A stretch of 64,000 nucleotides of DNA from positions 24,976 to 88,975 of the forward strand of contig CAVQME010000011.1 in NCBI GenBank assembly GCA_963713545.1, read 5' to 3'. Below are positions 7,171 to 27,304 of this stretch, one piece after another. Position 1 is the first letter of the stretch. Each line of letters opens with the position of its first letter. Under the pieces are notes generated by a model. It made no database searches and was not told the origin of the DNA. It worked only from the letters and a program-made list of their open reading frames with translations. A program made the position numbers and the translations under genes. Origin of the DNA: an uncultured Actinomycetes bacterium. GTDB lineage: Bacteria; Actinomycetota; Thermoleophilia; RBG-16-64-13.

Positions 7171-7418
7171 AGCCTCCCCGAGGCGGCCCACCGCCTGCAC
7201 TCCTCGTGGGACTCTTCGCCGGCGACGATCGCTTCCAGAAGCCTGGCCAATCCGCTATCGGGCAGAGTGACCACCCAGCAGCCGCAGAGGGCCTGCGCCA
7301 GCTGGTCGAGGCGCCTGCCACCGGGGCGCACACTCGCCGCCAGGCAATCGGCCGGCAGCGCGATCGATGCGCCGCAGCCGGGGCATATCCAGGTCGTGGG
7401 AGCACCCGTGGCCGTCAA
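7167..7418 (-). CDS. hypothetical small Cys-rich protein (CPGCG motif)
   Basis: This 83-codon ORF has a TTG start and a third-codon-position G/C bias consistent with coding sequence. Its end is convergent with, and overlaps, the polX stop. No recognisable family, and it could be spurious. Confidence 0.25.
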   Translation of the reverse strand: MTATGAPTTWICPGCGASIALPADCLAASVRPGGRRLDQLAQALCGCWVVTLPDSGLARLLEAIVAGEESHEECRRWAASGRL

Positions 7419-7531
7419 AGGTCAGAACCTCTCCGCGCATGGGGGAACAAGGAACCGCTACCACGAGTATCGGCGGGGAGCACCCGTCCCATGAGCGAGT
7501 CGGAGAGGCCGGCGTCGGCTAGCGCTAAGAA

Positions 7532-7688
7532 CTCGTTTCAGAATGAAGCTCCGCCGCCAGGGACGGGCTGGGCACGCGCCAGAGAAGGACGCAGGGAGCG
7601 CGAATAGCAGCGCTATGTGCGGGACCGAGGACGCACTATCGTGCCGCCGAGGGCGCACTAGGCGGCCGCGGCTTCATTCTGAAACGAG
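7532..7688. repeat. 18-bp perfect inverted repeat (ctcgtttcagaatgaagc / gcttcattctgaaacgag) flanking a 121-nt GC-rich core; MITE-like element or structured RNA
   Basis: The arms lie at 7532-7549 and 7671-7688 and are exact reverse complements. The stem can extend inward by about 6 more bp (gccgcc / ggcggc). The element sits in the intergenic region between convergent polX and the PQQ-propeller gene. Confidence 0.5.
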
Positions 7689-7711
7689 TGGTAAGCCCGT
7701 CCGACCCACTG

Positions 7712-9481
7712 CTACTTGTCGCCGAAGCAGTAGAAATAGCCGTCCCGGCTGCCCAGGTAGATCTTACCCTTCCATACAGCCGGCGTGGACTCGAGCGCGC
7801 TGCCGCTGGCCACCTTGTACTCCCAAACCACCGGCGGGTCGATCCGGGTGTCGCTCACATCCCAGGCGTGCAGTATCCCAGCCGTGTCGCCCACGATCAG
7901 GGTCTTGTCGACCACGATGCAACTGGCCCAGGTGTGTTCGGCGATGGTCTTTCTCCAGATGATCTCGCCGGTCTGCCGGTCGATGCCCAGGAGCGCGCCG
8001 CCATGCGTAGGAATGTAGAGCATCCCCTTGTAGATGCACGGTGTGGCCCACACCCCGTATTCGCCCCCCGACACTTTGGTGATCGCCTGCGACCACACGA
8101 GCGGGGTCTCGCCCTCTCCCGTCTTGCGGGGATCGATCTTGAAGACCTGGCCCACGGCCTTGGACCGTTCGGTGGCGCCCCGTGAGCTATCGGAGTGCTG
8201 GGCGACGTAGAGGAAACCCTCCTCGTCCGCCACGATGGTGGCGTCTGTGTCGTCGCCGGTCCAGTATCTGAAGACCACCGGGTACGCGTCCTTCCCCTTG
8301 GCCGGCGCTTCACCCTCACCCAACTCCTTCAGAGTGGCGCTCACGTCGAGGCCGGTGATGAGACCACCCGAGTTGGTGAAGTAGACCCGATCCCCCACCA
8401 GGCAGGGCGAGTTCTCCACCCCCACGTCCTTGCTGCCCAGCTTGTCTATCTCGCTCTGGGTCCAACTGGTGAAGTCGAGGACGATCTGGGGATCGACAGT
8501 CACCTTGCCCTGGGCGTCATATCCTCGGTTGAGCTTCAGGATGTAGAAATGGCCGTTCTCACCGCCTTCGAAGGCATAGTCGTTGCGGATGACCGTACTG
8601 GAGTCCCAGTCGTCGTTCCAGATCTGGTTCGGGAGCTCGTCGGCATCGAGATTGAAGAGCTCTGTCGGTTCGTCCCGGTCGATGGCAAGGATGCGCCACT
8701 TGTTGTCCCGGCAGCCCATGTAGATGAGGGGATAGCCGTCTGGATCCACGACCGCCGAACCCTTGAAGATGTCGCCCCCCTTGAAGTCTGGCAGGAGCTT
8801 CTCTCCGGTCGCGGCATCTAGGAAGTGCATCTTATAGTCGTAGGCGCCGAACACCACCCAGGTGGTGCCATCACGCTCGAAGATGCAGGGCTGGCCGGTC
8901 CAGCCGGTGCCGGTCCAGGTCTTGGTGACTCCCAGGTTGGTGGAGGTGCCGGACATGGGCCCGAACTTCCAGACGATCTGCGGGTTCTGCGGCACCGGTC
9001 CCTCACCATAATACGTGCGAGAGGCGTTGCCGCGGAACATCGTCAGACCGTCGAACTTGGTCTGGATGGGGCCGTAGAAGGTGCCGGGCACCCGCTTGTC
9101 GCCGGGCTCGTCGGGGTCCCCTTTGCCTGGCGCCACCGTGGTATTGGGACTGGCCTTCCCGGTGGATACCGAGATGTCCACGGTGCCGGACACGCCGGCC
9201 GTACTCGACGTGGACCCGCTGGTGGAGGTGCTCTCCGTCGTGGAGGTGGTCTCCGTGCTCTCCGTGCTCGAGGAGCTACCCGTCGTGTCGCTGTTCGACG
9301 TCACGGTTGTCGACGCGGTCCCCCCCGTGTCGTCGCCGCAGCCGCGTACCGCGAGTGCCACCAGAAGCACGACCACTGCCACGCACGCGCCGAGTGCAAG
9401 CAGGCGCAGTATGGAGCGGCGGCGCCGCTGGCGGCGCCGCCGCTCGTAGCTTCCTCGGTTGGTGGTCCTGCTCGCTTCCAC
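7712..9481 (-). CDS. membrane-anchored PQQ-like beta-propeller repeat protein (BamB/PQQ-repeat family) with Ser/Thr-rich linker
   Basis: The protein begins with an Arg-rich cytoplasmic tail and a TM helix, followed by a low-complexity S/T-rich segment of about 80 aa. Repeated W/G-containing beta-propeller blades of the PQQ type follow (for example ...GDRVYFTNSGG... and ...GMLYIPTHGGALLGIDRQTGEIIW...). Confidence 0.7.
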   Translation of the reverse strand: MEASRTTNRGSYERRRRQRRRRSILRLLALGACVAVVVLLVALAVRGCGDDTGGTASTTVTSNSDTTGSSSSTESTETTSTTESTSTSGSTSSTAGVSGTVDISVSTGKASPNTTVAPGKGDPDEPGDKRVPGTFYGPIQTKFDGLTMFRGNASRTYYGEGPVPQNPQIVWKFGPMSGTSTNLGVTKTWTGTGWTGQPCIFERDGTTWVVFGAYDYKMHFLDAATGEKLLPDFKGGDIFKGSAVVDPDGYPLIYMGCRDNKWRILAIDRDEPTELFNLDADELPNQIWNDDWDSSTVIRNDYAFEGGENGHFYILKLNRGYDAQGKVTVDPQIVLDFTSWTQSEIDKLGSKDVGVENSPCLVGDRVYFTNSGGLITGLDVSATLKELGEGEAPAKGKDAYPVVFRYWTGDDTDATIVADEEGFLYVAQHSDSSRGATERSKAVGQVFKIDPRKTGEGETPLVWSQAITKVSGGEYGVWATPCIYKGMLYIPTHGGALLGIDRQTGEIIWRKTIAEHTWASCIVVDKTLIVGDTAGILHAWDVSDTRIDPPVVWEYKVASGSALESTPAVWKGKIYLGSRDGYFYCFGDK

Positions 9482-9485
9482 GAGC

Positions 9486-10007
9486 CTACTCTACCACCAG
9501 TTCCAGGATCTCACGGCCGAACACCCCGGTGGTGTTGTCGGTGAACGCCGCCCTCCGCGGCTCCACCCGGTAGACGCCTATGGTCTGCGCCAACTCTGCC
9601 AGCCGAGGCTCCTTCAGCAGTTCCCGCACAAACGGAAAACGCCTCACGTACAGCGCCATCGCTCCCACCCTGGCAGCCCCGGTGACCAGCCGGGCCTCGC
9701 CCCATAGTTGCACACCCTGGATCTTCTCCCAGTCCTGGTAGTCCTCGCTGACGGTAATGGCGACGGGTGCCGCCTTCCCGATATGCTCTCCGTGCAGGCT
9801 CGTGGGCTTGCTGAGGAACACCAGACGGAATGCGTCGTCCATGGCATAGAAGACGCTGGCGGCATGAGCGGCGTTCCCCGTGGACGCGCCGGCCGGCCCC
9901 GGGATCCCGGGTCCGACGGTGGCTATGCTCATGGTGTGGTGGGCCCTCAGATAGCGCTCCACCCGCCCGCGTAGATCGTCCTTCGCGACGGCCCCGTCCT
10001 CCTGCAC
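9486..10007 (-). CDS. pyridoxamine 5'-phosphate oxidase-like FMN-binding split-barrel protein
   Basis: The size and the RVERYLRAHHTMSIATVG...FVRELL pattern are typical of the PNPOx-like / general stress protein 26 family. It lies 3 nt downstream of ubiX on the same strand. Confidence 0.55.
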   Translation of the reverse strand: MQEDGAVAKDDLRGRVERYLRAHHTMSIATVGPGIPGPAGASTGNAAHAASVFYAMDDAFRLVFLSKPTSLHGEHIGKAAPVAITVSEDYQDWEKIQGVQLWGEARLVTGAARVGAMALYVRRFPFVRELLKEPRLAELAQTIGVYRVEPRRAAFTDNTTGVFGREILELVVE

Positions 10008-10010
10008 CGA

Positions 10011-10679
10011 TCAACCTCGAGATGGAGCTTGCCCGCCTTGTCCTGGAAGCGTCGCTCCCGGCGGTCCATAGGACCTGCGGCCATCCGGCCAGCGCCTGAA
10101 CAGGTGGCGATCGAGCCCGAACTGATCGAGCATCTTGCCCACGGTCTGATCGACGATATCTTCGATGGTCGAAGGCTGATTGTAGAAGCTCGGCGCCGGA
10201 GGCAGGACCACCGCCCCGTTCTCGGTCACCTCGGCCATCAGGCGCAAGTGGCCCAGATGAAGCGGGGTCTCCCGCACCATCAGCACCAGCTTGCGGCGCT
10301 CTTTCAACACGACGTCGGCGGCCCGGACGAGCAGGGTGTCGTCGTAGCTATGGGCGATCGCCGACAGGCTCTTGATGGAACAAGGAGCCACGATCATGCC
10401 TGCCGTGATGAACGAGCCCGACGAGATCGGGGCGTCGATCTCCTCGTTGCCGTAGACTACGTCCGCCAGCGCCTCCACCTGTGCTGCTGTGTAGCTGGTC
10501 TCGGACTCGGCCACTCGTTTGGCGGCCTCGGTCATCACCAGATGGGTCTCCATGGTTGTATCCCGCAGCACTTCGAGCAGCCGGATCCCGTAGATCGTCC
10601 CCGAGGCCCCGGAGATGCCCACGACCAGGCGCCGCGTTTCGCCGCCATGCTCGCCGTTGTTCACGCTGCCACTCACCAT
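10011..10679 (-). CDS. ubiX: flavin prenyltransferase UbiX (prFMN synthase)
   Basis: Near-colinear match to UbiX/Pad1 motifs: VVGISGASGTIYGIRLLEVLRD, ETHLVMTEAA, SSGSF, CSIKSLSAIAHSY, RAADVVLKERRKLVLMVRETPLHLGHLRLM. The start codon overlaps the moaD stop (TGATG). Confidence 0.85.
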   Translation of the reverse strand: MVSGSVNNGEHGGETRRLVVGISGASGTIYGIRLLEVLRDTTMETHLVMTEAAKRVAESETSYTAAQVEALADVVYGNEEIDAPISSGSFITAGMIVAPCSIKSLSAIAHSYDDTLLVRAADVVLKERRKLVLMVRETPLHLGHLRLMAEVTENGAVVLPPAPSFYNQPSTIEDIVDQTVGKMLDQFGLDRHLFRRWPDGRRSYGPPGATLPGQGGQAPSRG

Positions 10680-10948
10680 CAGCCTCCCGCGATAGGGGGA
10701 AGGAGTCGGATCTCATCACCGTCGCTCAACGGTATCGTCAGCCCGCCGGCCTGGCGGGCGTTGCGCCCGTTGACGAAGACGCCCACCCATACTGTGCCGT
10801 CGTCGCGGAAGATGCGGCTCTTCAAGCGGGGTTGGCGGGCAACACAATCGGCCAGAGCTTCGGCCACGGTCGACCCCTCGCAGTCCATCCGCGTTGGGCC
10901 TTCCGGGCCGACGACGCCCACCGGCAGCTTGATGACCGCCTTAGCCAC
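10679..10948 (-). CDS. MoaD/ThiS-family ubiquitin-like sulfur carrier protein (C-terminal GG)
   Basis: The protein is 89 aa and ends ...DGDEIRLLPPIAGG, with the C-terminal glycine pair typical of MoaD. It lies between the AOR-associated ferredoxin gene and ubiX. Confidence 0.7.
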   Translation of the reverse strand: MAKAVIKLPVGVVGPEGPTRMDCEGSTVAEALADCVARQPRLKSRIFRDDGTVWVGVFVNGRNARQAGGLTIPLSDGDEIRLLPPIAGG

Positions 10949-10957
10949 GGTCGTTTC

Positions 10958-11434
10958 TCACGCCGGAGCCGGCGCCTTCTCGATTTTGCTCATCCGCACG
11001 TCGACAGCCAGCACGTGCGGGTTCTGACAGAACGCCACGCACTGTGGCGTCCCATCGCATAGGTCGCATTTGTATGCGACAGCTCGATCCGGGTGCTCAC
11101 GGATGACGTCATAAGGACAGGCGTCGTAGCACAGGCCGCAATTCGTGCACTTATCCTCGTTGACCTTGAGCACATAGCCGGAAGCCGGGTCGAGCCCGAC
11201 CGCGTGTACGTCGACGGGATGCTGTTCAATAGCGTCTTCGGGACACGCATCGGCGCATTTCGCGCAGGCGGTCTGCAGACACGTGTGTCCCTTGACGGCG
11301 GTGGTGGTGGGGTTCACCTCTACGAACAGCCGAGAGACCGAGGGCCGGTAGGCGCCTTCGTGCCAGGCCGAGCACGCCAGTTCGCACATGTGGCAGCCGG
11401 TGCATTTCTTGCTACTGATCATCACGTGTGGCAT
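10958..11434 (-). CDS. polyferredoxin-type 4Fe-4S cluster protein (AOR electron-transfer subunit, AorA-like)
   Basis: Four CxxCxxC(x)nCP motifs are present: CTGCHMCELAC, CAKCADACP, CTNCGLCYDACP, CDLCDGTPQCVAFC. The gene is immediately downstream of aor. Confidence 0.75.
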   Translation of the reverse strand: MPHVMISSKKCTGCHMCELACSAWHEGAYRPSVSRLFVEVNPTTTAVKGHTCLQTACAKCADACPEDAIEQHPVDVHAVGLDPASGYVLKVNEDKCTNCGLCYDACPYDVIREHPDRAVAYKCDLCDGTPQCVAFCQNPHVLAVDVRMSKIEKAPAPA

Positions 11435-11468
11435 CGATGTCCCTTTCTACCGCGTCTGCGCTCGCCGT

Positions 11469-13271
11469 CTACAGGCGGACGTCCACTCCCACCTCGGCCA
11501 ACTTGGCCTCGAGGGGCACGCCGTTCTCGTCCCAGCCACGTATCTCATAGTATTCCTGGAGAGCGTCGGCGAAAGCCTGCTCGCCGACGGCCTTACCGGC
11601 CGACGGCCCTTCCGCGAACGCGAACTCCGGCGCGTAGAGCTTCCGGGGAAGGGTGTCGGCCTCCACCCCCTCGCGCAGATTGAAAAGCCGGCCCAGGTTC
11701 CAGATCCGCTCGCCGGTGAGCATGATCTCGTCCTCGGTGAAATCCCGCTTCCACACGTGCTTGAACATCTGGCAGAGTTGATCGGGGTTGACCGCCCAGA
11801 AGTCGCACCAGATACCGCTGAACTTGATGGAGCTGAAGTTCTGCCCGATGAACCCGTTGTCGACGTTCCCCTTGATGATCTGCTCGGCCTTGCCCTCGAG
11901 GCTGTCCGGGGGACGGGTGCCCTCGACCACCTCGTCGGCGATGGGGTACGACCGCATGTGACAGCCGCCGCGATCGGAGGTGGCGTAGTTGACGCTCATG
12001 CCGAAGGCTCCCCGCGGGTCATAGCCTGGGAGCTCCAGATTCTTGACCTCCATGGCCATCTCGGGCACACCATATTTCGCGGCCAGCGCCCGCGCACCAA
12101 GAGCAAGGTCGGCACCGGTGCCTTCCCGTTTCGAGATGAGGGCGGGTGCCGCCAGGTAGCCCTCCGCCTCTCCAAAACGCAGACCGAAATCGGCTATGCC
12201 CTGCTCGGTCATATCCATGGCCAAGCCCACCACGGAGCCCGACGAGATCGTGTCGAGACCCCACTCGTCGCATTCGTGATTGAAGCGCATCAGCGCCTCG
12301 AGATCACCAACCCCGCAGTTCGGTCCGCAGAGGGCGATGGTCTCGTATTCCGGCCCCTCGCCCTTCACTCCTCCGGCTTCGTGCACCTGGCGGCAGCCGA
12401 GGGCGCACTGATAGCAGGCGCGATTGGCCACTTTGACCTTCAGCAGCGCTTCCGAGTTGATGGCCTCGACCCCTTCGAAGGTCCCCTGTGACCAGTTACG
12501 GGTGGGAAGCACTCCGGCGCCGTTCATCGGATCCACCAGGATAGGGGTCCCTTCCTCGTTGGCCCATAGGTTGAAGTCGGTGAGGACGTGCTCCGTGTGG
12601 ATGCGGGCGATATCGGCCAGGAACGCCCGGGCGTCGCCCACTTCCACCGAACCGGTACCGCGGATGGCGACGGCCTTGAGGTTCTTCGCGCCGAACAAAG
12701 CGCCGTGCCCACCCCTGCCGGCCTTGTGATACTGGTCGGTGCTCAGGCAGGCCCAGGGGATGAGGTTCTCTCCCGCCGGCCCGATGGAGAGCACCTTGGC
12801 ATCTTTGTCGAGATCGGCGCGTAGGGCCGCCTCGATGGCCGAAGTGTTGAGGCCCCAGTACTTACCCTCGGCGGGGATCAGTTCGACCTTGTCGTCCTTG
12901 ATCCACAGCACCACCGGCTCGGGTGCCTTGCCTGTGATGATGATCAGGTCGTAGCCGGCGAACTTCATCTCCGGGGCGAACGAGCCCCCTACGTAGCTGT
13001 CGTCCAGGATGCCGGTGATGGGGCTCTTCGCCCCCACCACCAGACGCGAGGCCGTGCTCACGTTGGTCCCCGCGAACGGTCCCGTAACCAAGAACACCGG
13101 GTTCTCCGGCGACCAGGGATCGACCTTGGGCGGTACGTATTCCCACATATAGCGGAGCAGCAGGCCTTTGCCCCCGATGTAGCGCTCGGCCCACTCCATG
13201 TTGAGGGGCTCGACCGCGCTCGTCCCGGTGCTGAGATCGACTCGCAGCACCCTTCCTCGATAAAAGTCCAA
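11469..13271 (-). CDS. aor: tungsten-containing aldehyde:ferredoxin oxidoreductase (AOR family)
   Basis: The 600-aa protein starts MDFYRGRVLRVDLSTG, with a GKGLLLRY motif, as in AOR N-domains. It has the conserved AOR pterin/4Fe-4S binding regions and the typical length. Confidence 0.9.
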   Translation of the reverse strand: MDFYRGRVLRVDLSTGTSAVEPLNMEWAERYIGGKGLLLRYMWEYVPPKVDPWSPENPVFLVTGPFAGTNVSTASRLVVGAKSPITGILDDSYVGGSFAPEMKFAGYDLIIITGKAPEPVVLWIKDDKVELIPAEGKYWGLNTSAIEAALRADLDKDAKVLSIGPAGENLIPWACLSTDQYHKAGRGGHGALFGAKNLKAVAIRGTGSVEVGDARAFLADIARIHTEHVLTDFNLWANEEGTPILVDPMNGAGVLPTRNWSQGTFEGVEAINSEALLKVKVANRACYQCALGCRQVHEAGGVKGEGPEYETIALCGPNCGVGDLEALMRFNHECDEWGLDTISSGSVVGLAMDMTEQGIADFGLRFGEAEGYLAAPALISKREGTGADLALGARALAAKYGVPEMAMEVKNLELPGYDPRGAFGMSVNYATSDRGGCHMRSYPIADEVVEGTRPPDSLEGKAEQIIKGNVDNGFIGQNFSSIKFSGIWCDFWAVNPDQLCQMFKHVWKRDFTEDEIMLTGERIWNLGRLFNLREGVEADTLPRKLYAPEFAFAEGPSAGKAVGEQAFADALQEYYEIRGWDENGVPLEAKLAEVGVDVRL

Positions 13272-13419
13272 AGCGACCCCCCCTTGATCGTGGGATAGGC
13301 TCAGCGCGGCTATCGTGTGGGGTCTGCCCCTGCACGCATCACCATTGTAGACAAGGGCCGCAGGCCCGACAACAGAAGGCGGAGACGGTGCAGGTCCCAG
13401 ACGCCCTGCGGAGCGCAGA

Positions 13420-15750
13420 TCAACTCCCGGCCGTGTCGAGGGTCCGCAGCGTCTGACCCACGCGGCCCGCGACGACGGACAGCCCGGTGTTGTTCAGGTG
13501 AACCCGGTCGGGACTGAAGAATCTGGTGTCGACCTCGCAGCCCGGCAGCCCGATGAGCCGGTCGGAGCCCACATCCACGAGCGCGTCGGCGAAACCCGGC
13601 CAGGTGGCCCGTATGCGCCTATTGAGCGTCTGCCTATACGCTTCCAGATTCGGAGGGTACACTCCGTCCGTGCGGGGGAGCATAGTCAGTACCACCACCG
13701 TGTAGCCGGCCGCTCGCCGCTCCAGACAGTACTGCCGCAGACGAGAATAGACCGTCTCAGGAGTGTGAGCCCAGTGCCGCATGTCGTTGGTGCCGCCCCA
13801 TATCACCACCACGTTCTGACCCAGGTCGGGACGAAAGAGAGGATCCACCTTGGCCGGAGCGTTGGCGAGCATCTCCTGCAGTCGCTGACCGCCGATGCCG
13901 AGATTCACCCACTTCACACCGGGATGGAACACCCGCATCAACTGGCTGGGGTAGGGATCGGTGGCTGTGGAGCCGGCGGTCAGCGAATCCCCGTCGAACA
14001 CGATAGTGCCGATAGGCTCGAAGACCGGCGCGTGCGGCACGGCGCCGGAGTTCGAGCCGGCGACGGACCCTGAGGGTCCGGTCAGAGCGTCCGAATCGTA
14101 CAGAGGGCCGCGGAGACGCAGGAGGTTGGCCAGCATCTGCGCGATCTCGCCCCGCGTCGCCGGGGCCGAGAGATCCCATTCGACCAAGTCTATCCCGGCA
14201 AGCAGGCCATTGTACTCGGCCGTGTGCACGTTGGACCCGTGATCCGGATCCGAGAACCAGCCGGTGTCGCCGCTCCAGCCGGCGGGAGGCGAGCCGAGAG
14301 CCCACGGCAGGTAGACTCCGGCGGCGCGGACCACCAGAGTGACGGCCTGCATGCGGCTGATGAGGGCCCAGGGCCTGAACACCCCCTCCCGATAGCCCCG
14401 GATGAGCCCGTAGTGATAGCCCGCCGACACATACTCTCGAGGATAGAGGGGAGACACGTTCTCCCCCAGGTCGTAGAACGGAGCCGCCATCATGCCTGAG
14501 TAGACCGGCATGCCCAGGGTCCCGTCAAGCATCTTGGCCATCTGCGCCCGCCGAACCGGCTCTCCAGGGCCGAAGGTGCCGTCGGCGAAGCCGCCGATGA
14601 CCTGTTTCGTCCACAGGCAGGCGATCGCTTCATAGTACTGATCGCCGCGCGCGATATCCGAGAACGGCGACTGAACGGGCAGGGAGGCGTTCCACCCGAA
14701 CGAAGAGGCGAGCAGGGTCAACTCGACTCCGGCCCCGCCTGCGGGATCGACGGCGCGAAAGACATCGCTGCGGCCACCACCCATCGGCACCAACTCGACG
14801 TACGGCACGTCGTCGCCGGGCCATCCGGAGCGCCAGCGATAGTCGAAGGCCTCGTTCTTGCTCACGTCCACGAGGTTCACGATCGCGCGGTCGGTCATCT
14901 TCGTGAGGTGGACCTCGCCACTGCTGTCATCCACCGTCGCGAACATGAAGCTTCGACCACCGGGGCCAGCCTGCGGGGCCCACGCGTTCGGGACGGGTAC
15001 GAGAGTTTCCTTGCCGGTGTCAAGAGCCAAAAGGTAGAAGCCTCGATTCGTCGGGAACGCCTCCAGGCTCCTGTCGAACACGATCGCCAGGCCGCCGGCC
15101 GCGCCGGCCTCCGCCTCAGACTCGGATGCCGCGCCCGTCTGGCCCGGGACCCAGGACCCGTTCTCTGCCCCCTTGATCGTCAGGACCGGCTCGCCGGCGG
15201 AATCGACGACCTGGATGGAGGCCACGCCGCCCGCCGACGTCTCATAGAGCACGTAGCGTCCGTCGGGCGACACGGCCGGCGACGACGCGCCCTCTATCAT
15301 CCAGTTGACCGGCTCGCCGCCGGCTCGGGCGGGCGGCCCCACGAAGACGACCGTGGTACGTTGCTCGCCCCCGACCATCACCCTCTCTTCCCAGGCCAAG
15401 GCAGCACCATCGGCGGACCAACTCGGGCGTCCCAGGGCTTTGCCTTCGGCGGGGACCACCATCGAGACTCCCGCTGATTCCTCGTAGCGCCAGATGTCGC
15501 CGAGATGAACGAAGTAGAGCAAAGGAGCCGGTACCGCGGCGTCGAGCGGCACCTCGACCGCCGCGGGCGCGGCTTCAGCGGATGCGGGCGGGACCAGAGC
15601 CGCCGGTGGCGCCACGGCAAAAAGCAGCAGCGCCGCCAAGAGAGCGAGAAACACAGCAAGACACTTCGGGATCGCGGGGCGCGACCAAGAAGGGCGCCCG
15701 CCCACCTTAGCAGCGCCTCTCTTTTCGACCCGCTCGCTTAGTCCCGCCAA
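13420..15750 (-). CDS. secreted multidomain protein: TolB/PD40-like beta-propeller + S-layer-homology (SLH) repeats + C-terminal SGNH/GDSL hydrolase
   Basis: The N-terminus has a hydrophobic signal/TM. PD40-like repeats follow (SPDGRYVLYETSAGG...), then SLH-like segments (FSDIARGDQYYEAIACLWTKQVIGGFADGTFGPGEPVRRAQMAKML ... GLIRGYREGVFRPWALISRMQAVTL). The C-terminal SGNH domain has block I (IVFDGDSLTAG) and block III (VVIWGGTNDM). Confidence 0.65.
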   Translation of the reverse strand: MAGLSERVEKRGAAKVGGRPSWSRPAIPKCLAVFLALLAALLLFAVAPPAALVPPASAEAAPAAVEVPLDAAVPAPLLYFVHLGDIWRYEESAGVSMVVPAEGKALGRPSWSADGAALAWEERVMVGGEQRTTVVFVGPPARAGGEPVNWMIEGASSPAVSPDGRYVLYETSAGGVASIQVVDSAGEPVLTIKGAENGSWVPGQTGAASESEAEAGAAGGLAIVFDRSLEAFPTNRGFYLLALDTGKETLVPVPNAWAPQAGPGGRSFMFATVDDSSGEVHLTKMTDRAIVNLVDVSKNEAFDYRWRSGWPGDDVPYVELVPMGGGRSDVFRAVDPAGGAGVELTLLASSFGWNASLPVQSPFSDIARGDQYYEAIACLWTKQVIGGFADGTFGPGEPVRRAQMAKMLDGTLGMPVYSGMMAAPFYDLGENVSPLYPREYVSAGYHYGLIRGYREGVFRPWALISRMQAVTLVVRAAGVYLPWALGSPPAGWSGDTGWFSDPDHGSNVHTAEYNGLLAGIDLVEWDLSAPATRGEIAQMLANLLRLRGPLYDSDALTGPSGSVAGSNSGAVPHAPVFEPIGTIVFDGDSLTAGSTATDPYPSQLMRVFHPGVKWVNLGIGGQRLQEMLANAPAKVDPLFRPDLGQNVVVIWGGTNDMRHWAHTPETVYSRLRQYCLERRAAGYTVVVLTMLPRTDGVYPPNLEAYRQTLNRRIRATWPGFADALVDVGSDRLIGLPGCEVDTRFFSPDRVHLNNTGLSVVAGRVGQTLRTLDTAGS

Positions 15751-15854
15751 GATGCCAGCTCCCGTGTCCCCATATGCTCGAAGTCACTTCGTCACCGCGC
15801 CGGACCTGACGATATCGTATGATGGCAAAAAAGACCTGAGAGGTTTCCGGAATC

Positions 15855-16547
15855 ATGGCTACACCGAAGCGGCCAGGGCCCAAAGGTTCGGCGGATCGTG
15901 GCGCGGCCCAGGCCCGAGAGATCATTGCCCGCTTGAGGGAAGAGTATCCCGAAGCCGGCATCGTGCTTGACTACGGCAGCGACTGGGAGTTGCTCGTGGC
16001 CGTTATCCTCTCGGCCCAGTGCACCGACAAAATGGTTAACCAGGTCACGGGCAAGCTGTTCCAGAAGTACCGCACGGTCGAGGATTACGCTTCCGCGGAC
16101 CCGGCTGAATTGGAGACCGACATCCGGCCCACCGGCTTCTTCCGCAATAAGACGAAGCACATCATCGGAGCCGCCCTGAAGATCCTGGCCGACTTCCGGG
16201 GAGAGGTACCGTCCAGCATGGCCGAGCTCCTCACTCTGCCCGGGGTTGCCCGCAAGACGGCCAATATAGTGCTCGGCAACGCCTACCCCGAGGCCTACTC
16301 CACCGACCCCGACGCGGGCATCGCAGTGGACACGCACGTGAACCGGCTCAGCCAAAGGCTCGGCCTGGCGAAGGCCGCCGACTCCGACAAGATCGAGAGA
16401 GAGCTGATGGAGATCGTCCCCCGGGCCGACTGGTTCCAGCTGACCTATCTTCTGATCGAGCACGGTCGCGCCGTCTGCATGGCCAAGCGCCCCCGCTGCG
16501 GGGAATGCCCGCTCCAGGATATCTGCCCCTCCGCCTTCAAGGTCTGA
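15855..16547 (+). CDS. nth: endonuclease III (DNA glycosylase/AP lyase Nth)
   Basis: HhH-GPD motifs are present (LLTLPGVARKTANIVL). The C-terminal 4Fe-4S loop CMAKRPRCGECPLQDIC is also present. Confidence 0.9.
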   Translation: MATPKRPGPKGSADRGAAQAREIIARLREEYPEAGIVLDYGSDWELLVAVILSAQCTDKMVNQVTGKLFQKYRTVEDYASADPAELETDIRPTGFFRNKTKHIIGAALKILADFRGEVPSSMAELLTLPGVARKTANIVLGNAYPEAYSTDPDAGIAVDTHVNRLSQRLGLAKAADSDKIERELMEIVPRADWFQLTYLLIEHGRAVCMAKRPRCGECPLQDICPSAFKV

Positions 16548-16688: not shown

Positions 16689-18047
16689 ATGATCAGAGAC
16701 CGTAAGCACGAGTGCATGAGCCGGGACGAGCTCAGGCAGTTGCAAGGAGAGCGCCTGGTCGCCCAGGTCAAACGGGTCTGCGAGCGGGTCCCCTTTTACA
16801 GGAACGTCTTCGACCACACCGGGATCACTCCCGACCGGGTCCGCGGAGTCGATGACCTTCCCCGTCTGCCCTTCACCAAGAAGCTCGATCTGCGCGACAA
16901 CTATCCCTTTGGTCTCTTCGCGGTGCCGAACAAGGAAGTGGTCCGCATCCATGCATCTTCCGGCACCACCGGGAAACCGACCACCTGTGGCTACTCCCGG
17001 GGCGACATCGACATGTGGGCCGAGGTCATGGCCCGCTCCCTGGTGGGGGCGAGCGCCACAGATGAGGATGTGGTACAGGTCGCCTACGGTTACGGCCTCT
17101 TCACCGGAGGCCTGGGGGCACACTACGGGGCTGAGCTGCTCGGCGCCTCCGTCATCCCCATCTCGGGCAGCAACACCCAACGCCAGCTCATGCTCATGCA
17201 GGACTACGGCACCACCATGATCTGCTGCACGCCCAGCTTCGTCCTCTATCTCTGGGACGTGGCCCAGCAACTCGGTCTGGACGTGGCCAAGTTCCCGCTG
17301 CGGGTAGGGGTGTTGGGTGCCGAGCCGTGGTCGGAGGCCATGCGGAGCGACATCGAGCAGAAGTGGAACATCAAGGCCTGCGACATCTATGGACTGTCCG
17401 AGATCATCGGGCCCGGCGTGTCGTGCGAGTGCATCGAGGCCCAATCCGGCCTCCACATCAGCGACGATCACTTCCTGCCCGAGGTCATCGACCCCGAGAC
17501 GGGCGAAGTGCTGCCGGAAGGAGAGCTGGGAGAGTTGGTCATCACCACTCTGACCAAAGAGGCGATGCCCCTCATCCGCTACCGCACCGGGGATATCACC
17601 CGGCTGTCTTCGGAGCCCTGCATCTGCGGCCGGACGAGTACGCGTATGGCCCGCGTTTCGGGGCGCTCGGACGACATGCTCATCATCCGAGGAGTGAACG
17701 TCTTCCCCAGCCAGGTGGAATCGGTCCTCCTGATGTCGCCCCAGGTGGAACCTCACTACCAATTGATAGTGAACCGCAAGGGCGCGATGGACACCATGGA
17801 CGTATCGGTGGAGATCTCCCCCACCCTCTACAGGGAGCTCTCGGAAGCCATCCTCTCCATGGACGACGTCACCATCTTCACCGAGCACGACGTCCTCGTC
17901 GACCTGAAGCAACACATCCAGAAGAACATCAAGGACATTATCGGCATCAACGTGAACGTGGCGTTCAAAGAGCCGGGATCCATCGCGCGCAGCGAAGGGA
18001 AGGCCCAGCGGGTCGTCGATCTACGCAAGGACCAGGGCGGCAAGTAG
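16689..18047 (+). CDS. paaK: phenylacetate-CoA ligase family protein (PaaK-type adenylate-forming enzyme)
   Basis: The N-terminus has LSRDELRQLQGERL...VPFYRNVF and an FTKK motif. SSGTTGKPT is the AMP-binding motif, and the size and layout are PaaK-like. Confidence 0.85.
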   Translation: MIRDRKHECMSRDELRQLQGERLVAQVKRVCERVPFYRNVFDHTGITPDRVRGVDDLPRLPFTKKLDLRDNYPFGLFAVPNKEVVRIHASSGTTGKPTTCGYSRGDIDMWAEVMARSLVGASATDEDVVQVAYGYGLFTGGLGAHYGAELLGASVIPISGSNTQRQLMLMQDYGTTMICCTPSFVLYLWDVAQQLGLDVAKFPLRVGVLGAEPWSEAMRSDIEQKWNIKACDIYGLSEIIGPGVSCECIEAQSGLHISDDHFLPEVIDPETGEVLPEGELGELVITTLTKEAMPLIRYRTGDITRLSSEPCICGRTSTRMARVSGRSDDMLIIRGVNVFPSQVESVLLMSPQVEPHYQLIVNRKGAMDTMDVSVEISPTLYRELSEAILSMDDVTIFTEHDVLVDLKQHIQKNIKDIIGINVNVAFKEPGSIARSEGKAQRVVDLRKDQGGK

Positions 18048-18244: not shown

Positions 18245-19573
18245 ATGAGCACGACCGCCATCGAGATAATCGGTGTAGTCCTTCTAATCTTGGTCAACGC
18301 CTTCTTCGTGATATCCGAGTTCGCCATCGTCAAGGTGCGCGACACGAGGATCGCCGAGCTGGCCGCCATGGGAAGCCGGCGCGCACGAGTGGCCGATCAC
18401 ATCGTCAACCACCTCGACGCCTACCTGTCGGCGACGCAACTGGGTGTCACCGTCGCCAGCCTGGGATTAGGCTGGTTGGGCGCGTCGGCCTTCACGGATA
18501 TTTTCGATGTGACCATGAGTCGTACCGCCGCAGCCATCATCGCCTTCGTCTTCGTCACCTTCATCACCATCATTTTCGGCGAGTTGGTCCCCAAGTCTGT
18601 CGCCATACGCAAGGCTGAGCGCTCGACGCTCATCGTCGCCCTGCCTCTGCGCTGGTTCTACCTCATCACCCGCCCGCTGACCTGGCTCATGTACATCTCC
18701 GCTGCCGGCATACTGAGGCTCTTCCGCATCCAGCCTGCCTCGGAACGCGATCTGGCTCACTCCGAGGAAGAGTTGCGCATGATCATCGAGGCAAGCCAGG
18801 AAGTGGGCCACATCGACGAGGTGGAGCAGACCCTCATGCGCCGGGCACTCACCTTCGGCGACCGCACTGTGGGCGACATCATGGTCCCCCGCACCGAGAT
18901 GGCCGCCCTGCCCAGCTCCACTCTGGTCAGCGACACCATCGACGAGATCGCGGAGACCAATCACACCCGATACCCGGTTTACGAGGAAGACGTGGATAAC
19001 ATCGTCGGCTACATCCACGTCAAGGACCTCTACCGCACGCCGCGCGAGGCTACCTTGCGCCGCCTGCTGCGCCCTATCGGCTTCATAGCCGAGACCTCCA
19101 GCATCGAACTGGCCCTGCAGCGCTTCCAGAGCACGCGCACGCCGCTCGCCATCGTGGTCGATGAGCACGGGGGCACGGCCGGTATCGTCACTATCCAGGA
19201 CGTGGTGGAAGAGTTGATCGGCGAAGTCCAGGACGAGTTCGACCTGGAGGCGCGCGAGGTGGAGGACCGCGGAGACGGGAGCTACTCCATCGACGGCGGA
19301 GCCCGGATCGACTATCTGGAGGGCCTCCTTGGACTGGATCTGCCCGAAGAAGGCTTTCCCACTTTGGGTGGCAGGGTGTTCGAACAGCTGCAGCGACGTC
19401 CTCAGGTGGGTGACGAGGCTCAGATAGGTCAATTCCACGCCCAGGTGCTCGAGGTCGATGGGATGCGGATCTCCCGGGTCCTTCTCACCCGCCCCGCTGA
19501 GCAAGAGGAAGAAGAAGGCGAGTTGGAGGAAGCGGAGGCCGGCGCCCCAGGCCGCGACGACTCCGAGGTCTGA
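18245..19573 (+). CDS. HlyC/CorC (CNNM) family transporter: DUF21 membrane domain + CBS pair + CorC_HlyC domain
   Basis: Four N-terminal TM helices with a VISEFAIV motif. The tandem CBS region is followed by the typical C-terminal transporter-associated domain. The tail is acidic (EQEEEEGELEEAEA). Confidence 0.85.
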   Translation: MSTTAIEIIGVVLLILVNAFFVISEFAIVKVRDTRIAELAAMGSRRARVADHIVNHLDAYLSATQLGVTVASLGLGWLGASAFTDIFDVTMSRTAAAIIAFVFVTFITIIFGELVPKSVAIRKAERSTLIVALPLRWFYLITRPLTWLMYISAAGILRLFRIQPASERDLAHSEEELRMIIEASQEVGHIDEVEQTLMRRALTFGDRTVGDIMVPRTEMAALPSSTLVSDTIDEIAETNHTRYPVYEEDVDNIVGYIHVKDLYRTPREATLRRLLRPIGFIAETSSIELALQRFQSTRTPLAIVVDEHGGTAGIVTIQDVVEELIGEVQDEFDLEAREVEDRGDGSYSIDGGARIDYLEGLLGLDLPEEGFPTLGGRVFEQLQRRPQVGDEAQIGQFHAQVLEVDGMRISRVLLTRPAEQEEEEGELEEAEAGAPGRDDSEV

Positions 19574-19607
19574 CGCCGCCGCGAGCGCCGCAGGGTATCA
19601 TTCCCCT

Positions 19608-22600: not shown

Positions 22601-23796
22601 ACAAACTCGCGGAGGCGCTCTCCCGCAAGCCCGGCTTCGAATGGGCCGCTTGGGACTCTTATCGCCGCTTCCTCCAATCCTGGGCCATGGCCTCCGGCAT
22701 CGACCGGGACTTCTTCGACGGGATAATGAACGAGTTCAAGGTCCGCTACGGCATCGAGCGCAAGTTAGACTTCCTGCCCGAGCACATGCGCGAGCTGGCG
22801 TTCACCTACAAGAGCCGGGCCCGGGAGCTGGGGGTCAGGTTCAAGGATGACCCCTTCGCGCAGGTCGTCGGCTGTATCAACAACGTGCTGGGATCCTGGG
22901 ATTCTCCCGAGGCCACGCTGTACCGTCAGTACCTTGGGATAGCGGCGGAGTGGGGCACCGCCGTGGTGGTGCAGAGGATGGTCTTCGGGAACCTGAGCCG
23001 TGAGTCCGGCTCCGGGGTCACGTTCACGCGCAACCCGTTGGAACCGTACAGCAACCAGGTCCGGCTCTTCGGCGACTTCACCGCCCGCAGCCAGGGCGAG
23101 GACCTGGTGGGCGGCCTCGTCTTCCCTCTGCCCATCTCCGAAGCCCAGCGTCTCGGCAGTCCCACCTACCGGGGCATAGAGCATTCTCTGGAGAAGGACT
23201 ATCCCGAGGTCTACCAGGCCCTCCTCGACGTCGCCAAGGACCTCGTGAACGTCAGGGAGTTCGACCCGCAGGAGATCGAGTTCACTTTCGAATCAGCATC
23301 GGGCCCGGGCCTCCATATCCTGCAGAAGCGGGCTATGGTGCAGCAACAGACGCGAGACATGCCCTATTTCAACACCTCTTCGCCCCGTTTCGGCCCTCCC
23401 ATAGCCGTTGGCATGGGCGTGGCGGGAGGCGCCTACTCGGGGAGAGCGGCCATCAGCAGCCGCCAGATCGAGCAACTGCTCGCCAAGGCACCCGACGACA
23501 ACATCCTGCTCCTCAGACCGGATACCGTGCCCGAGGACATCGCCATGATCACCCAGGTCTCCGGCCTGCTGACCGCCCGGGGGGGCGCAACCTCCCACGC
23601 GGCGGTGACCGCCAAGCGCCTCGGTAAGACCGCCGTGGTCGATTGCCGCGAGTTGGAAGTGATCGAACAGCAGGGGGTCGCGCACCTCGCCGGGAGGAAG
23701 ATAGACGCGGGCGATTGGCTCTCCATAGACGGCCGAACCGGCAACATCTTCTGGGGGCGTATCCCGGTCCTTGCCCGGCCGATCATCTCTCTCTGA
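19608..23796 (+). CDS. giant dikinase-like protein: ~900-aa unknown alpha-helical N-terminal region + PPDK_N-type ATP-grasp nucleotide-binding domain + PEP-utilizer phosphohistidine domain. No C-terminal PEP/pyruvate TIM-barrel domain. Interrupted by a +1/-2 frameshift near 22509-22515.
   Basis: Frame A (19608-22850) ends in PPDK-N-like sequence GFKGLGLKQMASYGHRVPEGFILTTELF...LRLGDPQP. Frame B (22354-23796) continues exactly where PPDK does: NRLLTLSIRSGAAISMPGLMATFVDVGLND ... GGATSHAAVTAKRLGKTAV ... IDGRTGNIF. The frame switch sits in a CCCC run at 22509-22512. Confidence 0.55.
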
Positions 23797-27010: not shown

Positions 27011-27304
27011 CTACCAGCTGTGGCGCAGTGCGCCCGCCGTGCAGGCGTCGGTGCACGGAAGCCGATGCTGCGACCCGCCGCTGCCGTTCTGCCCCTTGCA
27101 CGTGGAACACAGCTCGCGAAGACGCTTCCGGGTCTTCTCGACCACGACGGCCACCATTTCGTCGTAGTCGTCCATCTCGATCACGTATACCCCCTGGGGA
27201 CACGCGCTCACGCAGGGGTGCTGCTCGCACCGGGCGCACAGATCGCCGTCGATGGTGATGTAGTAGAAACCTGAGCCATCTTCGTAGCCGTAGTTGGCGA
27301 TCAT
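27011..27304 (-). CDS. small ferredoxin-like Cys-rich protein (97 aa)
   Basis: The protein starts MIANYGYEDGSGFYYITIDGDLCARCEQHPCVSACPQG and ends ...CSTCK...CTDACTAG. Its start abuts the stop of the upstream activase gene. The longer ORF-track version (to 27751) is an Arg-rich antisense artefact. Confidence 0.6.
   Translation of the reverse strand: MIANYGYEDGSGFYYITIDGDLCARCEQHPCVSACPQGVYVIEMDDYDEMVAVVVEKTRKRLRELCSTCKGQNGSGGSQHRLPCTDACTAGALRHSW

What the first reader, a model, noticed from the sequence alone, without database searches (positions are those of the whole stretch)
9486..13271. Tungsten-type AOR operon carrying MoaD, UbiX (prFMN synthase) and a PNPOx-like flavoprotein, with paaK and moeA nearby
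Five genes run in one direction with 0-34 nt spacing (AOR, 4x[4Fe-4S] polyferredoxin, MoaD-GG, UbiX, PNPOx-like). The PQQ-propeller gene lies only 4 nt further downstream. MoaD next to AOR is consistent with dedicated pterin-cofactor maturation. UbiX, however, makes prenylated FMN for UbiD-family (de)carboxylases, and no UbiD homologue is in the window. A phenylacetate-CoA ligase homologue lies 3.4 kb away. That suggests an aryl-aldehyde / arylacetate route (AOR oxidising arylacetaldehyde, PaaK activating the acid). An unseen prFMN-dependent aromatic (de)carboxylase could be linked to it.
Basis: partly seen in the sequence, partly recalled or inferred. Interest (0 to 1): 0.55.

Follow-up and report, generated by a model that had tools for sequence, protein, structure and literature searches.

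The report
AOR operon joined to UbiX–YhbP pair
An ordinary tungsten-type aldehyde oxidoreductase operon has, in one group of uncultured soil actinobacteria, been joined to a separate two-gene unit (UbiX plus a small YhbP-like protein), and that small protein travels across phyla with the genes that make or use the prenylated-flavin cofactor, so it may be an undescribed helper in making that cofactor.

Summary
Five minus-strand genes lie -1 to 34 nt apart: AOR/WorL, WorS-like polyferredoxin, MoaD-GG, UbiX and a PNPOx-fold protein. A beta-propeller gene follows 4 nt on. No UbiD occurs in the 64 kb. PaaK lies 3.4 kb away on the other strand. moeA is 50 kb away, not nearby.

Comparison of 79 AOR loci shows two separable modules. 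AOR-Fd-MoaD occurs without UbiX in 19 sister loci. UbiX-PNPOx occurs without AOR in one relative's contig. The five-gene fusion is confined to one monophyletic clade of 23 loci (each from a different species-level genome) of uncultured Actinomycetota. So an AOR-UbiX functional link is not supported beyond probable co-transcription.

The new result concerns the PNPOx-like gene. It is a YhbP/UPF0306-type protein. Its relatives are fused to CTP-dependent riboflavin kinase or to Nudix. They also sit beside type-2 IPP isomerase, UbiX, or UbiD carboxylase clusters (phenylphosphate- and phthaloyl-CoA-type). I read UbiX-YhbP as a prFMN-supply pair serving an unseen UbiD enzyme, probably one acting on aromatic acids. 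The protein's biochemical role is inferred, not shown.

The parts
13344..13372 (-). Only sigma-70-like promoter match in 7400-16000, about 73 nt upstream of the AOR start
   Evidence: 9 of 12 matches. This is a consensus match only; one such match is what shuffled sequence gives (mean 1.3).
11469..13271 (-). Catalytic subunit of a tungsten-type aldehyde:ferredoxin oxidoreductase (WorL/AorB-like)
   Evidence: Pfam AFOR_N and AFOR_C. Best solved relatives are 9mqx_D at 466 bits, 1aor at 408 and 8c0z_A at 372. The alignment keeps the CxxCxxxC and distal Cys cluster ligands, the EGPEYE Glu, GGCH, and the pterin motifs GRGGxGA, DxxGxD and ELPxYDPRG.
10958..11434 (-). Polyferredoxin small subunit with four [4Fe-4S] clusters (WorS/AorA-like)
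   Evidence: Fer4 families. PDB matches: WOR5 Fe-S subunit 6x1o_B at 72 bits, AorA 8c0z_C at 68, WorS 9mqx_E at 66. It follows the AOR in all 42 actinobacterial loci.
10679..10948 (-). MoaD/ThiS-fold sulfur-carrier-like protein ending in GG (AorD-like)
   Evidence: ThiS Pfam at 43 bits; moaD_arch at 48.9 (cut-off 49.5); SAMP1 at 52.7. Conserved after Fd in all 42 actinobacterial loci, with or without UbiX.
10011..10679 (-). UbiX/PAD1-type flavin prenyltransferase (prFMN synthase); its start overlaps the moaD stop (TGATG), with a GGAGG just upstream
   Evidence: NF004685 at 264 bits (cut-off 188) and TIGR00421 at 240 (cut-off 109). PAD1 6qlg at 191 bits, aligned end to end. Sequence read.
9486..10007 (-). 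YhbP/UPF0306-like split-barrel (PNPOx-fold) protein; proposed accessory of prFMN synthesis
   Evidence: 33% identity to E. coli YhbP. AlphaFold2 model pLDDT 88; Foldseek matches to PNPOx-like FMN- and haem-binding proteins at TM 0.6-0.68. Adjacent to UbiX in 22 loci. Relatives are fused to riboflavin kinase or Nudix and sit beside UbiX or UbiD.
7712..9481 (-). Membrane-anchored extracellular beta-propeller (PQQ_2/BamB-like); probably co-transcribed but a variable passenger
   Evidence: Pfam matches. N-terminal Arg-rich segment plus a hydrophobic helix. Present in only 11 of 23 UbiX-bearing loci.
16689..18047 (+). PaaK-family aryl-acid CoA ligase, divergently transcribed; syntenic context rather than part of the operon
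   Evidence: TIGR02155 at 594 bits, below the cut-off of 646. Present in 22 of 23 UbiX-bearing loci, absent in L008.

Best explanation
The locus is a composite operon built from two independent modules.

Module 1 is WorL-WorS-MoaD. It is a tungsten-type, broad-spectrum aldehyde:ferredoxin oxidoreductase with its own four-cluster polyferredoxin and a MoaD-like sulfur carrier for pterin-cofactor maturation. It has no NAD-linked subunit (AorC or BfuABC), so electrons probably leave through the polyferredoxin to soluble ferredoxin.

Module 2 is UbiX plus a YhbP-like split-barrel protein. UbiX prenylates reduced FMN with dimethylallyl phosphate to give prFMN for a UbiD-family (de)carboxylase encoded elsewhere. 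The YhbP-like protein is an accessory of that cofactor pathway. Most likely it is a flavin-handling protein that supplies reduced FMN to UbiX. Alternatively it could carry or mature prFMN.

In one clade of uncultured Actinomycetota, module 2 was placed directly behind moaD, and the two are now most likely transcribed together from a promoter upstream of the AOR.

Shown: gene identities, spacing, separability of the modules, single origin of the junction, and the recurrent fusion or neighbourhood of YhbP-like proteins with riboflavin kinase, Nudix, IDI-2, UbiX and UbiD.

Inferred: co-transcription, tungsten as the metal, the electron acceptor, the biochemical role of the YhbP-like protein, and the identity of the UbiD client.
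For: Separability of the modules:
- Of 79 AOR loci from species-representative genomes, 23 carry AOR-Fd-MoaD-UbiX (22 of them also with YhbP-like), and 19 sister loci carry AOR-Fd-MoaD only.
- In those sister loci a nitroreductase-family gene follows moaD, and in L018 and L024 a radical-SAM gene comes next.
- All UbiX-bearing AORs form one clade in a neighbour-joining tree.
- A 59%-identical YhbP-like gene sits in a UbiX-YhbP pair with no AOR, Fd or MoaD, 510 nt from divergent iorAB.
- The block keeps its order while its flanks vary: propeller in 11 of 23 loci, SLH-GDSL in 5 of 23, and L008 lacks all the usual flanking genes.

Operon signals:
- Gaps of -1 to 34 nt, a TGATG overlap with a GGAGG upstream, and the only promoter-like site upstream of the AOR.

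Link between YhbP-like proteins and prFMN:
- Fusions: YhbP+CTP-riboflavin kinase (P0123, 58% identity), kinase+YhbP in another lineage (P0168, P0182), and Nudix+YhbP (P0121, P0276).
- Operons of Nudix | YhbP | riboflavin kinase | type-2 IPP isomerase (TIGR02151 at 312 bits, cut-off 281) lie next to a phenylphosphate carboxylase beta subunit (TIGR02724 at 651 bits, cut-off 469) and phenylphosphate-synthase-like genes.
- L084 has a Nudix-UbiX operon 7 kb from a kinase-YhbP fusion. L088 has kinase-UbiX-UbiD.
Four of the seven had UbiX or UbiD; the binomial p is below 2e-4 even at an assumed 5% background.
- Nudix enzymes make dimethylallyl phosphate for prFMN (PMC12359138).
- PNPOx-family genes are listed, without interpretation, next to UbiD genes in the naphthalene-carboxylase clusters (PMC6849830) and next to padA-C/cdcA-C in a fungal cluster (PMC9200314).
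Against: - No UbiD, riboflavin kinase, Nudix or IDI-2 lies in the window or within 10 kb in any locus of the window's own clade. The client enzyme is therefore unseen.
- Two of the seven sampled family members had unrelated neighbours: thiamine genes and haem-biosynthesis genes.
- The best structural matches include haem-binding proteins (HugZ, At3g03890), so the ligand could be haem rather than flavin.
- The five-gene block is kept across 23 species-level genomes with YhbP identity down to 57%, and AOR homologues lie next to kinase or YhbP genes in two unrelated loci (L087, L099). Some functional tie to AOR is therefore not excluded.
- The E. coli UbiX-UbiD system works without any known YhbP requirement (my own knowledge).
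Confidence: 0.7

Rival explanations
1. AOR, PaaK and UbiX form one aryl-aldehyde/arylacetate pathway. AOR oxidises an arylacetaldehyde, PaaK activates the acid, and a prFMN-dependent decarboxylase encoded elsewhere feeds or drains the route. Under this model UbiX sits in the AOR operon for functional reasons.
For: - Tight spacing and overlap of moaD and ubiX.
- The block is kept in 23 species-level genomes, and PaaK is syntenic in 22 of them.
- The AOR is of the broad-spectrum type that includes phenylacetaldehyde oxidisers (PMC12318220).
- In unrelated lineages, PaaK-like ligases sit directly beside kinase-YhbP genes (L084, L085, L087, L096), and AOR homologues sit beside them too (L087, L099).
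- iorAB lies beside the module in relatives.
Against: - The AOR-UbiX junction arose once.
- 19 sister loci, and every more distant AOR locus, lack UbiX.
- A relative has UbiX-YhbP without AOR.
- L008 keeps the block but has no PaaK.
- PaaK is on the opposite strand, beyond two unrelated genes.
- The whole region is syntenic in this clade, so conservation of neighbours does not by itself indicate function.
- No paper links UbiX with AOR.
Confidence: 0.15
2. The PNPOx-like protein is the electron-output flavoprotein of the WorL-WorS enzyme, a functional analogue of AorC. Under this model UbiX is the passenger.
For: - The operon lacks any NAD-linked subunit.
- In sister clades the gene after moaD is another FMN protein, of the nitroreductase family, so a flavoprotein occupies that position in both.
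- The closest characterised AORs that have a WorS subunit all pass electrons to a flavin module (PMC12318220).
Against: - The YhbP-like gene stays with UbiX when the AOR is absent.
- It is fused to riboflavin kinase or Nudix, never to Fe-S or AOR domains.
- In other phyla it sits beside UbiX or UbiD with no AOR.
- UbiX always lies between it and the AOR genes.
Confidence: 0.07
3. UbiX here is a housekeeping gene for quinone biosynthesis (for example the MqnL/MqnM late steps of the futalosine menaquinone route). It landed behind the AOR operon by neutral rearrangement, and the YhbP-like protein is an unrelated general stress or haem-binding protein.
For: - The junction arose once and is lineage-restricted.
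- Foldseek's top hits include haem-binding proteins.
- One sampled family member lies next to hemA/L/C/D.
- UbiD partners of the menaquinone type exist in Actinomycetota (my own knowledge; NCBIfam model TIGR03701 is listed).
Against: - The UbiX-YhbP pairing recurs in Chloroflexi in the reverse gene order (L113) and through fusions with enzymes that supply UbiX's substrates.
- This UbiX scores highest against PAD1 and Pad1-type proteins (191 and 176 bits). The Pseudomonas ubiquinone-type UbiX scores 127 bits.
- No mqn or ubiA genes are in the window.
Confidence: 0.08

Closest known systems
Acetomicrobium mobile WorABCSL (PDB 9MQX; PMC12318220) and the WOR 'clade 87' AORs
   Same: It is the best-matching solved catalytic subunit (466 bits, aligned over residues 3-596). 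It has a WorS-type four-cluster polyferredoxin partner, and the cluster and pterin motifs are conserved.
   Different: No BfuABC bifurcating module is encoded here. The gene set is WorL-WorS-MoaD only. The cited paper states that clade 87 has no known heterodimeric WorSL enzymes, so if this AOR truly belongs to that clade it would be of an unlisted subunit type. I did not test clade membership by phylogeny against their set.
Aromatoleum aromaticum AorABCDE (PDB 8C0Z)
   Same: It has AorB-like (372 bits), AorA-like (68 bits) and AorD-like (MoaD) genes in one operon. That enzyme oxidises phenylacetaldehyde.
   Different: The gene order is B-A-D rather than A-B-C-D-E. There is no FAD/NAD subunit AorC and no AorE. 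UbiX and YhbP-like are appended here.
UbiX/PAD1 flavin prenyltransferases
   Same: The protein is a full-length member, above the NCBIfam cut-offs, with roughly 50-55% identical positions in the printed alignments to fungal PAD1 and E. coli O157 Pad1.
   Different: It has no adjacent UbiD. It carries a low-complexity C-terminal tail of about 25 residues. Its start overlaps a moaD gene.
E. coli YhbP (UPF0306, COG3787; 'putative FMN binding protein')
   Same: 33% identity over 124 residues, with shared motifs (IxGVQ, RRFP, FTDNxxGFG). The fold is the same. No function is known.
   Different: It scores far below the YhbP equivalog cut-off (50.8 against 176 bits). It has a variable low-complexity loop insert. 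E. coli yhbP is not next to ubiX; it lies about 0.8 kb from ubiT-ubiU-ubiV.
UbiD-family carboxylase clusters of anaerobic aromatic degraders (phenylphosphate synthase/carboxylase; naphthalene carboxylase of N47/NaphS2; phthaloyl-CoA decarboxylase)
   Same: Relatives of the YhbP-like gene (30-60% identity) lie inside or beside such clusters. A PNPOx-family gene is listed in the N47/NaphS2 clusters (PMC6849830).
   Different: The window has none of the carboxylase, synthase or HAD genes; only the UbiX-YhbP pair is present.

Membership tests
AOR/WOR family (tungstopterin aldehyde:ferredoxin oxidoreductases) | AFOR_N plus AFOR_C domain architecture at full length | tested here: met
   Pfam scores of 249.8 and 349.2 bits, far above the gathering scores.
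AOR/WOR family | Four Cys ligands of the [4Fe-4S] cluster, the catalytic Glu (EGPEYE) and His (GGCH), and the pterin-binding motifs | tested here: met
   All are aligned and identical with 1AOR and 9MQX. Residue roles are from my knowledge of the 1AOR structure.
AOR/WOR family | Tungsten (not molybdenum) in the cofactor, and aldehyde-oxidising activity | not testable with these tools
   Needs metal analysis and an enzyme assay.
N-type AOR (AorABC of A. aromaticum) | An FAD-containing, NAD(P)-reducing third subunit encoded with AorAB | tested here: not met
   No such gene lies in the operon or its flanks.
Bifurcating WorABCSL | BfuABC-type subunits encoded with WorSL | tested here: not met
   None in the window.
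UbiX flavin prenyltransferase | Score above the curated family cut-offs over the full length | tested here: met
   NF004685 at 264.2 bits against a cut-off of 188; TIGR00421 at 240.5 against 108.9. End-to-end alignment to PAD1 and Pad1.
UbiX flavin prenyltransferase | Works with a UbiD-family enzyme in the same genome | not testable with these tools
   No UbiD in the 64 kb window or in 10 kb flanks of 23 related loci. The rest of the genome could not be read.
YhbP/UPF0306 family | Score above the NCBIfam equivalog cut-off (NF002900) | tested here: not met
   50.8 bits against a cut-off of 176. It is a distant relative: 33% identity to E. coli YhbP.
PNPOx-like split-barrel superfamily | Split beta-barrel fold | tested here: met
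   AlphaFold2 pLDDT 88.2 and pTM 0.82. There are 114 PDB matches at E<=1e-3, all of the PNPOx-like fold among those listed. The Pfam PNPOx_N score of the window protein itself is below the gathering score (24.9 against 28.1), although most homologues pass.
PNPOx-like split-barrel superfamily | Binds FMN (rather than haem, FAD or F420) | not testable with these tools
   Structural neighbours include FMN-, FAD- and haem-binding proteins and Rv2991.
MoaD/ThiS sulfur carriers | Beta-grasp ThiS domain with a C-terminal Gly-Gly | tested here: met
   ThiS at 43.2 bits against a cut-off of 22.5. The sequence ends ...PPIAGG. moaD_arch scores 48.9, just under its cut-off of 49.5.
PaaK phenylacetate-CoA ligase (equivalog) | Score above the TIGR02155 cut-off | tested here: not met
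   594.4 bits against a cut-off of 646.3. It is a PaaK-family ligase whose substrate is not established.

The most novel reading that the evidence does not exclude
The YhbP/UPF0306-like split-barrel proteins are a missing, widely distributed component of prenylated-FMN biogenesis. One possibility is that they are the reductase or carrier that delivers reduced FMN to UbiX (and to IDI-2). Another is that they are an oxygen-independent factor that matures or hands over prFMN to UbiD enzymes in anaerobes. If so, the uncharacterised E. coli yhbP, which lies next to the anaerobic ubiquinone genes ubiT/U/V, would have the same role.
Probability: 0.4. Interest if true: 0.75.

Novelty: new variant of a known kind. 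Interest (0 to 1): 0.55.

Why it matters
UbiD-family enzymes carry out difficult (de)carboxylations, including anaerobic activation of phenol, phthalate, benzene and naphthalene, and they are used in biocatalysis. Two points about their cofactor remain unclear to my knowledge: how cells supply reduced FMN and dimethylallyl phosphate to UbiX, and how prFMN is oxidatively matured without oxygen.

A small protein keeps turning up fused or adjacent to riboflavin kinase, Nudix, IDI-2, UbiX and UbiD, in Actinomycetota, Chloroflexota, Burkholderiales and other lineages not named in the records. That makes it a concrete, cheaply testable candidate for the missing step. It also suggests a function for the orphan family YhbP/UPF0306.

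For the AOR itself the result is sobering: the operon is an ordinary WorL-WorS-MoaD unit, and its link to UbiX is a lineage-specific junction.

Tried and rejected
- I looked for UbiD in the window and in about 1.4 Mb of related loci, using Pfam and tblastn with E. coli UbiD. None was found.
- I searched the literature for UbiX+AOR, YhbP, UbiX+CTP-riboflavin kinase and prFMN+riboflavin kinase. Nothing relevant came up.
- A sequence search of the PDB with the PNPOx-like protein alone gave no hit. A profile search found only distant PNPOx-like proteins, the best being Rv2991.
- An exact-sequence look-up of the window's UbiX gave only a 1.2 kb contig.
- I considered the beta-propeller as part of the system and rejected it: it is present in only 11 of 23 loci and is predicted to be extracellular.
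- I considered moeA as part of the system and rejected it: it is 50 kb away.
- I considered the PNPOx-like protein as the AOR's electron acceptor, because sister clades have a nitroreductase flavoprotein in that position. I ranked this low because the protein follows UbiX, not the AOR.
- The promoter and terminator consensus scans are uninformative in this high-GC actinobacterium; counts equal those from shuffled sequence.

Full report
**1. The observation**

On the minus strand six ORFs follow one another:
- AOR, 11469-13271
- a 158-aa polyferredoxin, 10958-11434
- an 89-aa MoaD/ThiS-like protein ending in GG, 10679-10948
- UbiX, 10011-10679
- a 173-aa PNPOx-like protein, 9486-10007
- a 589-aa beta-propeller, 7712-9481

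The gaps are 34, 9, -1, 3 and 4 nt. The moaD stop and the ubiX start share a base (TGATG), with a GGAGG just upstream. The 148-nt gap upstream of the AOR holds the only sigma-70-like match in the region. That match carries little weight, because shuffled sequence gives as many.

Three caveats apply:
- The PNPOx_N match is below Pfam's gathering score (24.9 against 28.1 bits).
- PaaK is just under its equivalog cut-off (594 against 646 bits).
- moeA (63195-63998) is 50 kb away.

No UbiD-family gene is present among about 60 scanned ORFs of the window or by tblastn with E. coli UbiD. The genome is high-GC (about 65%). It carries an LprG-like/MFS pair and SLH-domain proteins. Its nearest relatives are uncultured Actinomycetota, Thermoleophilia and 'Gaiellales' MAGs.

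**2. The AOR module**

The catalytic subunit is closest to three solved enzymes: WorL of the Acetomicrobium mobile WorABCSL complex (9MQX, 466 bits), Pyrococcus furiosus AOR (408 bits) and Aromatoleum aromaticum AorB (372 bits). It is much further from FOR, WOR5 and BamB. The Fe-S cysteines, the EGPEYE glutamate, the GGCH histidine and the pterin motifs are all conserved.

The small subunit resembles WorS, AorA and the WOR5 Fe-S subunit. According to PMC12318220, these characterised relatives belong to WOR clade 87. Its members oxidise a broad range of aldehydes and come as monomers, NAD-linked trimers or bifurcating pentamers.

The operon here encodes neither AorC nor BfuABC, so it looks like a plain WorL-WorS enzyme with a dedicated MoaD. 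This is an ordinary new member of a known family. Phylogeny cannot say whether its substrate is aromatic.

**3. Is UbiX tied to the AOR?**

A scan of one genome per species with the AOR returned 79 loci. I tabulated the window's genes in them by tblastn.
- 23 loci carry AOR-Fd-MoaD-UbiX, and 22 of these also carry the PNPOx-like gene (in L030 the contig ends first).
- 19 further actinobacterial loci (AOR 66-80% identical) carry AOR-Fd-MoaD with no UbiX or PNPOx-like gene within 10 kb. In four of those examined (L017, L018, L024, L026) a nitroreductase-family flavoprotein follows moaD, with a radical-SAM gene after it in L018 and L024. In L016 a short-chain dehydrogenase follows instead.
- The remaining, more distant AOR loci (42% identity or less) have no UbiX.

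In a neighbour-joining tree all UbiX-bearing AORs form one clade, so the junction arose once.

Conversely, a 59%-identical homologue of the PNPOx-like gene sits in a UbiX-PNPOx pair with no AOR, Fd or MoaD. It has a 510-nt upstream gap and divergent iorAB.

The two modules are therefore separable. Within the clade the block stays intact while its flanks vary: the propeller is present in 11 of 23 loci, SLH-GDSL in 5 of 23, and L008 has lost all the usual flanking genes including PaaK. That is consistent with the block behaving as one transcription unit. It does not show a shared pathway.

**4. What the PNPOx-like gene is**

It is a distant member of the YhbP/UPF0306 family. It shares 33% identity and the motifs IxGVQ, RRFP and FTDNxxGFG with E. 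coli YhbP. An AlphaFold2 model (pLDDT 88) is a split beta-barrel. No function is published for YhbP.

An exhaustive search found 780 clusters at 50% identity at E<=1e-3. Several of the longer hits are fusions:
- YhbP-like + CTP-dependent riboflavin kinase (P0123, 58% identical to the window protein)
- riboflavin kinase + YhbP-like in another lineage (P0168, P0182)
- Nudix + YhbP-like (P0121, P0276)

Their genomic contexts are consistent with one another.
- In actinobacterial relatives the genes Nudix | YhbP | riboflavin kinase | type-2 IPP isomerase form one operon in varying fusion states. The operon lies next to phenylphosphate-synthase-like genes and a phenylphosphate carboxylase beta subunit, a UbiD-family protein scoring 651 bits against a cut-off of 469.
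- In other lineages a Nudix-UbiX operon lies 7 kb from a kinase-YhbP fusion, beside PaaK-like ligases and a 4-hydroxybenzoyl-CoA-reductase-like molybdenum enzyme (L084). Elsewhere a kinase-UbiX-UbiD row occurs (L088).

These partners match what UbiX needs. Riboflavin kinase makes FMN. IDI-2 makes dimethylallyl diphosphate. Nudix enzymes make the monophosphate that UbiX uses (PMC12359138).

**5. A sample not chosen by context**

The fusion cases were selected, so I took seven mid-distance family members (30-40% identical to the window protein).
- L107 (Chloroflexota): a riboflavin kinase directly upstream.
- L108 (Burkholderiales): divergent from phenylphosphate-synthase-like genes and a UbiD.
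- L109: followed by GntR, UbiD, HAD and phenylphosphate-synthase-like genes.
- L111: in a row with two UbiD genes and two family-III CoA transferases, the layout of phthaloyl-CoA decarboxylase clusters.
- L113 (Chloroflexi): directly followed by a UbiX that is 58% identical to the window's.
- L110 and L112: unrelated neighbours, thiamine genes and haem-biosynthesis genes respectively.

Four of seven with UbiX or UbiD within 6 kb is far above any plausible background (p below 2e-4 even at an assumed 5%).

Published gene tables show the same pattern without comment. A PNPOx-family gene sits beside a UbiD gene in the naphthalene-carboxylase clusters of N47 and NaphS2 (PMC6849830). PNPOx-like, riboflavin-synthesis and flavin-reductase genes sit beside padA-C and cdcA-C in a Penicillium cluster (PMC9200314). 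I did not test whether those genes belong to the same subfamily.

**6. Mechanism proposed**

UbiX and the YhbP-like protein form a prFMN-supply pair for a UbiD-family enzyme encoded elsewhere. The company its relatives keep suggests that this enzyme acts on aromatic acids or phenols.

The fold belongs to the FMN-binding split-barrel superfamily, which includes flavin reductases. Both UbiX and IDI-2 need reduced FMN. On that basis the role I consider most likely is delivery of reduced FMN. Carriage or oxygen-independent maturation of prFMN are alternatives. All of this is inference from fusion and neighbourhood evidence. A haem ligand is not excluded.

The AOR module probably oxidises aldehydes to acids and passes electrons through the polyferredoxin to ferredoxin. 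Placing ubiX-yhbP behind moaD would co-regulate cofactor supply with aldehyde metabolism in this clade.

PaaK-like ligases and AOR homologues do recur near these modules in L084, L085, L087, L096 and L099. However, most AOR loci do not support it.

**7. Verdict**

The AOR operon is a new member of a known kind. The recurrent association of YhbP-like proteins with UbiX, UbiD and flavin-supply genes is, as far as the searchable literature shows, undescribed. It is the part worth following up.

The main gap is that the UbiD client in this genome could not be located with the tools at hand.

Noticed in passing
window 29089-34695 (-): Two tandem three-gene sets of 2-oxoacid:ferredoxin oxidoreductase (gamma, beta and alpha subunits). 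They are paralogous copies, with alpha 82%, beta 76% and gamma 61% identical between sets.
   Followed up: partly
window 27301-29116 (-) and 25859-26989 (-): Two overlapping ORFs that both hit BcrAD/BadFG-type ATPase (35% identical to each other), next to a 2Fe-2S/4Fe-4S protein. This could be an activator pair for a dehydratase or reductase, but no such partner gene was recognised.
   Followed up: no
window 19458-23796 (+): A 1130-aa ORF with no Pfam hit overlaps by about 600 nt, in another frame, an ORF carrying PPDK_N and PEP-utilizers domains. This may be a frameshift in the assembly or a very large PEP-utilising enzyme. It has the same domain types as the phenylphosphate-synthase-like genes seen next to YhbP-like genes in L104-L106, L108 and L109.
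   Followed up: no
window 2-2404, 39013-41169, 50852-52075: Large ORFs with coding-like GC3 (800, 718 and 407 aa) have no Pfam match at all.
   Followed up: no
L016-L018, L024, L026 (about 12600-14500): In the sister clade without UbiX, a nitroreductase-family flavoprotein follows moaD in L017, L018, L024 and L026. A radical-SAM gene comes next in L018 and L024, plus an ATP-grasp protein in L024. In L016 a short-chain dehydrogenase and an ERG4/ERG24-like gene follow instead. The radical-SAM gene recalls the cmo gene next to the P. furiosus aor (my own knowledge).
   Followed up: partly
L083 (E. coli K-12, 3299472-3303367): E. coli yhbP lies two genes (about 0.8 kb) from ubiT and the ubiU-ubiV genes of oxygen-independent ubiquinone synthesis. 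This is suggestive in view of the YhbP-like/UbiX link, but it is only one genome.
   Followed up: partly
L099 7206-10257 and L087 6919-9870: A HAD+CTP-riboflavin-kinase fusion gene ends 2 nt before an AOR homologue (34% identical to the window's) in L099. In L087 a kinase+HAD fusion and a YhbP-like gene lie next to a convergent AOR homologue, after acetone-carboxylase-like (hydantoinase A/B) genes and a PaaK-like ligase.
   Followed up: partly
L105 11086-12519 and L106 6050-7450: A single protein fuses CTP-dependent riboflavin kinase to type-2 IPP isomerase (TIGR02151 at 312 bits). The two halves would supply the two precursors of prFMN.
   Followed up: yes
window 13420-15750 (-): An SLH-domain protein with a C-terminal GDSL lipase domain lies directly upstream of the AOR operon. 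It is present in only 5 of 23 related loci, so it is a variable insertion between endonuclease III and the AOR.
   Followed up: partly
window 42000-48000: GC content dips to about 0.61, against 0.65 elsewhere. The stretch carries a radical-SAM gene, an amino-acid ABC transporter, a VTT-domain protein and the start of the LprG-like/MFS pair.
   Followed up: no
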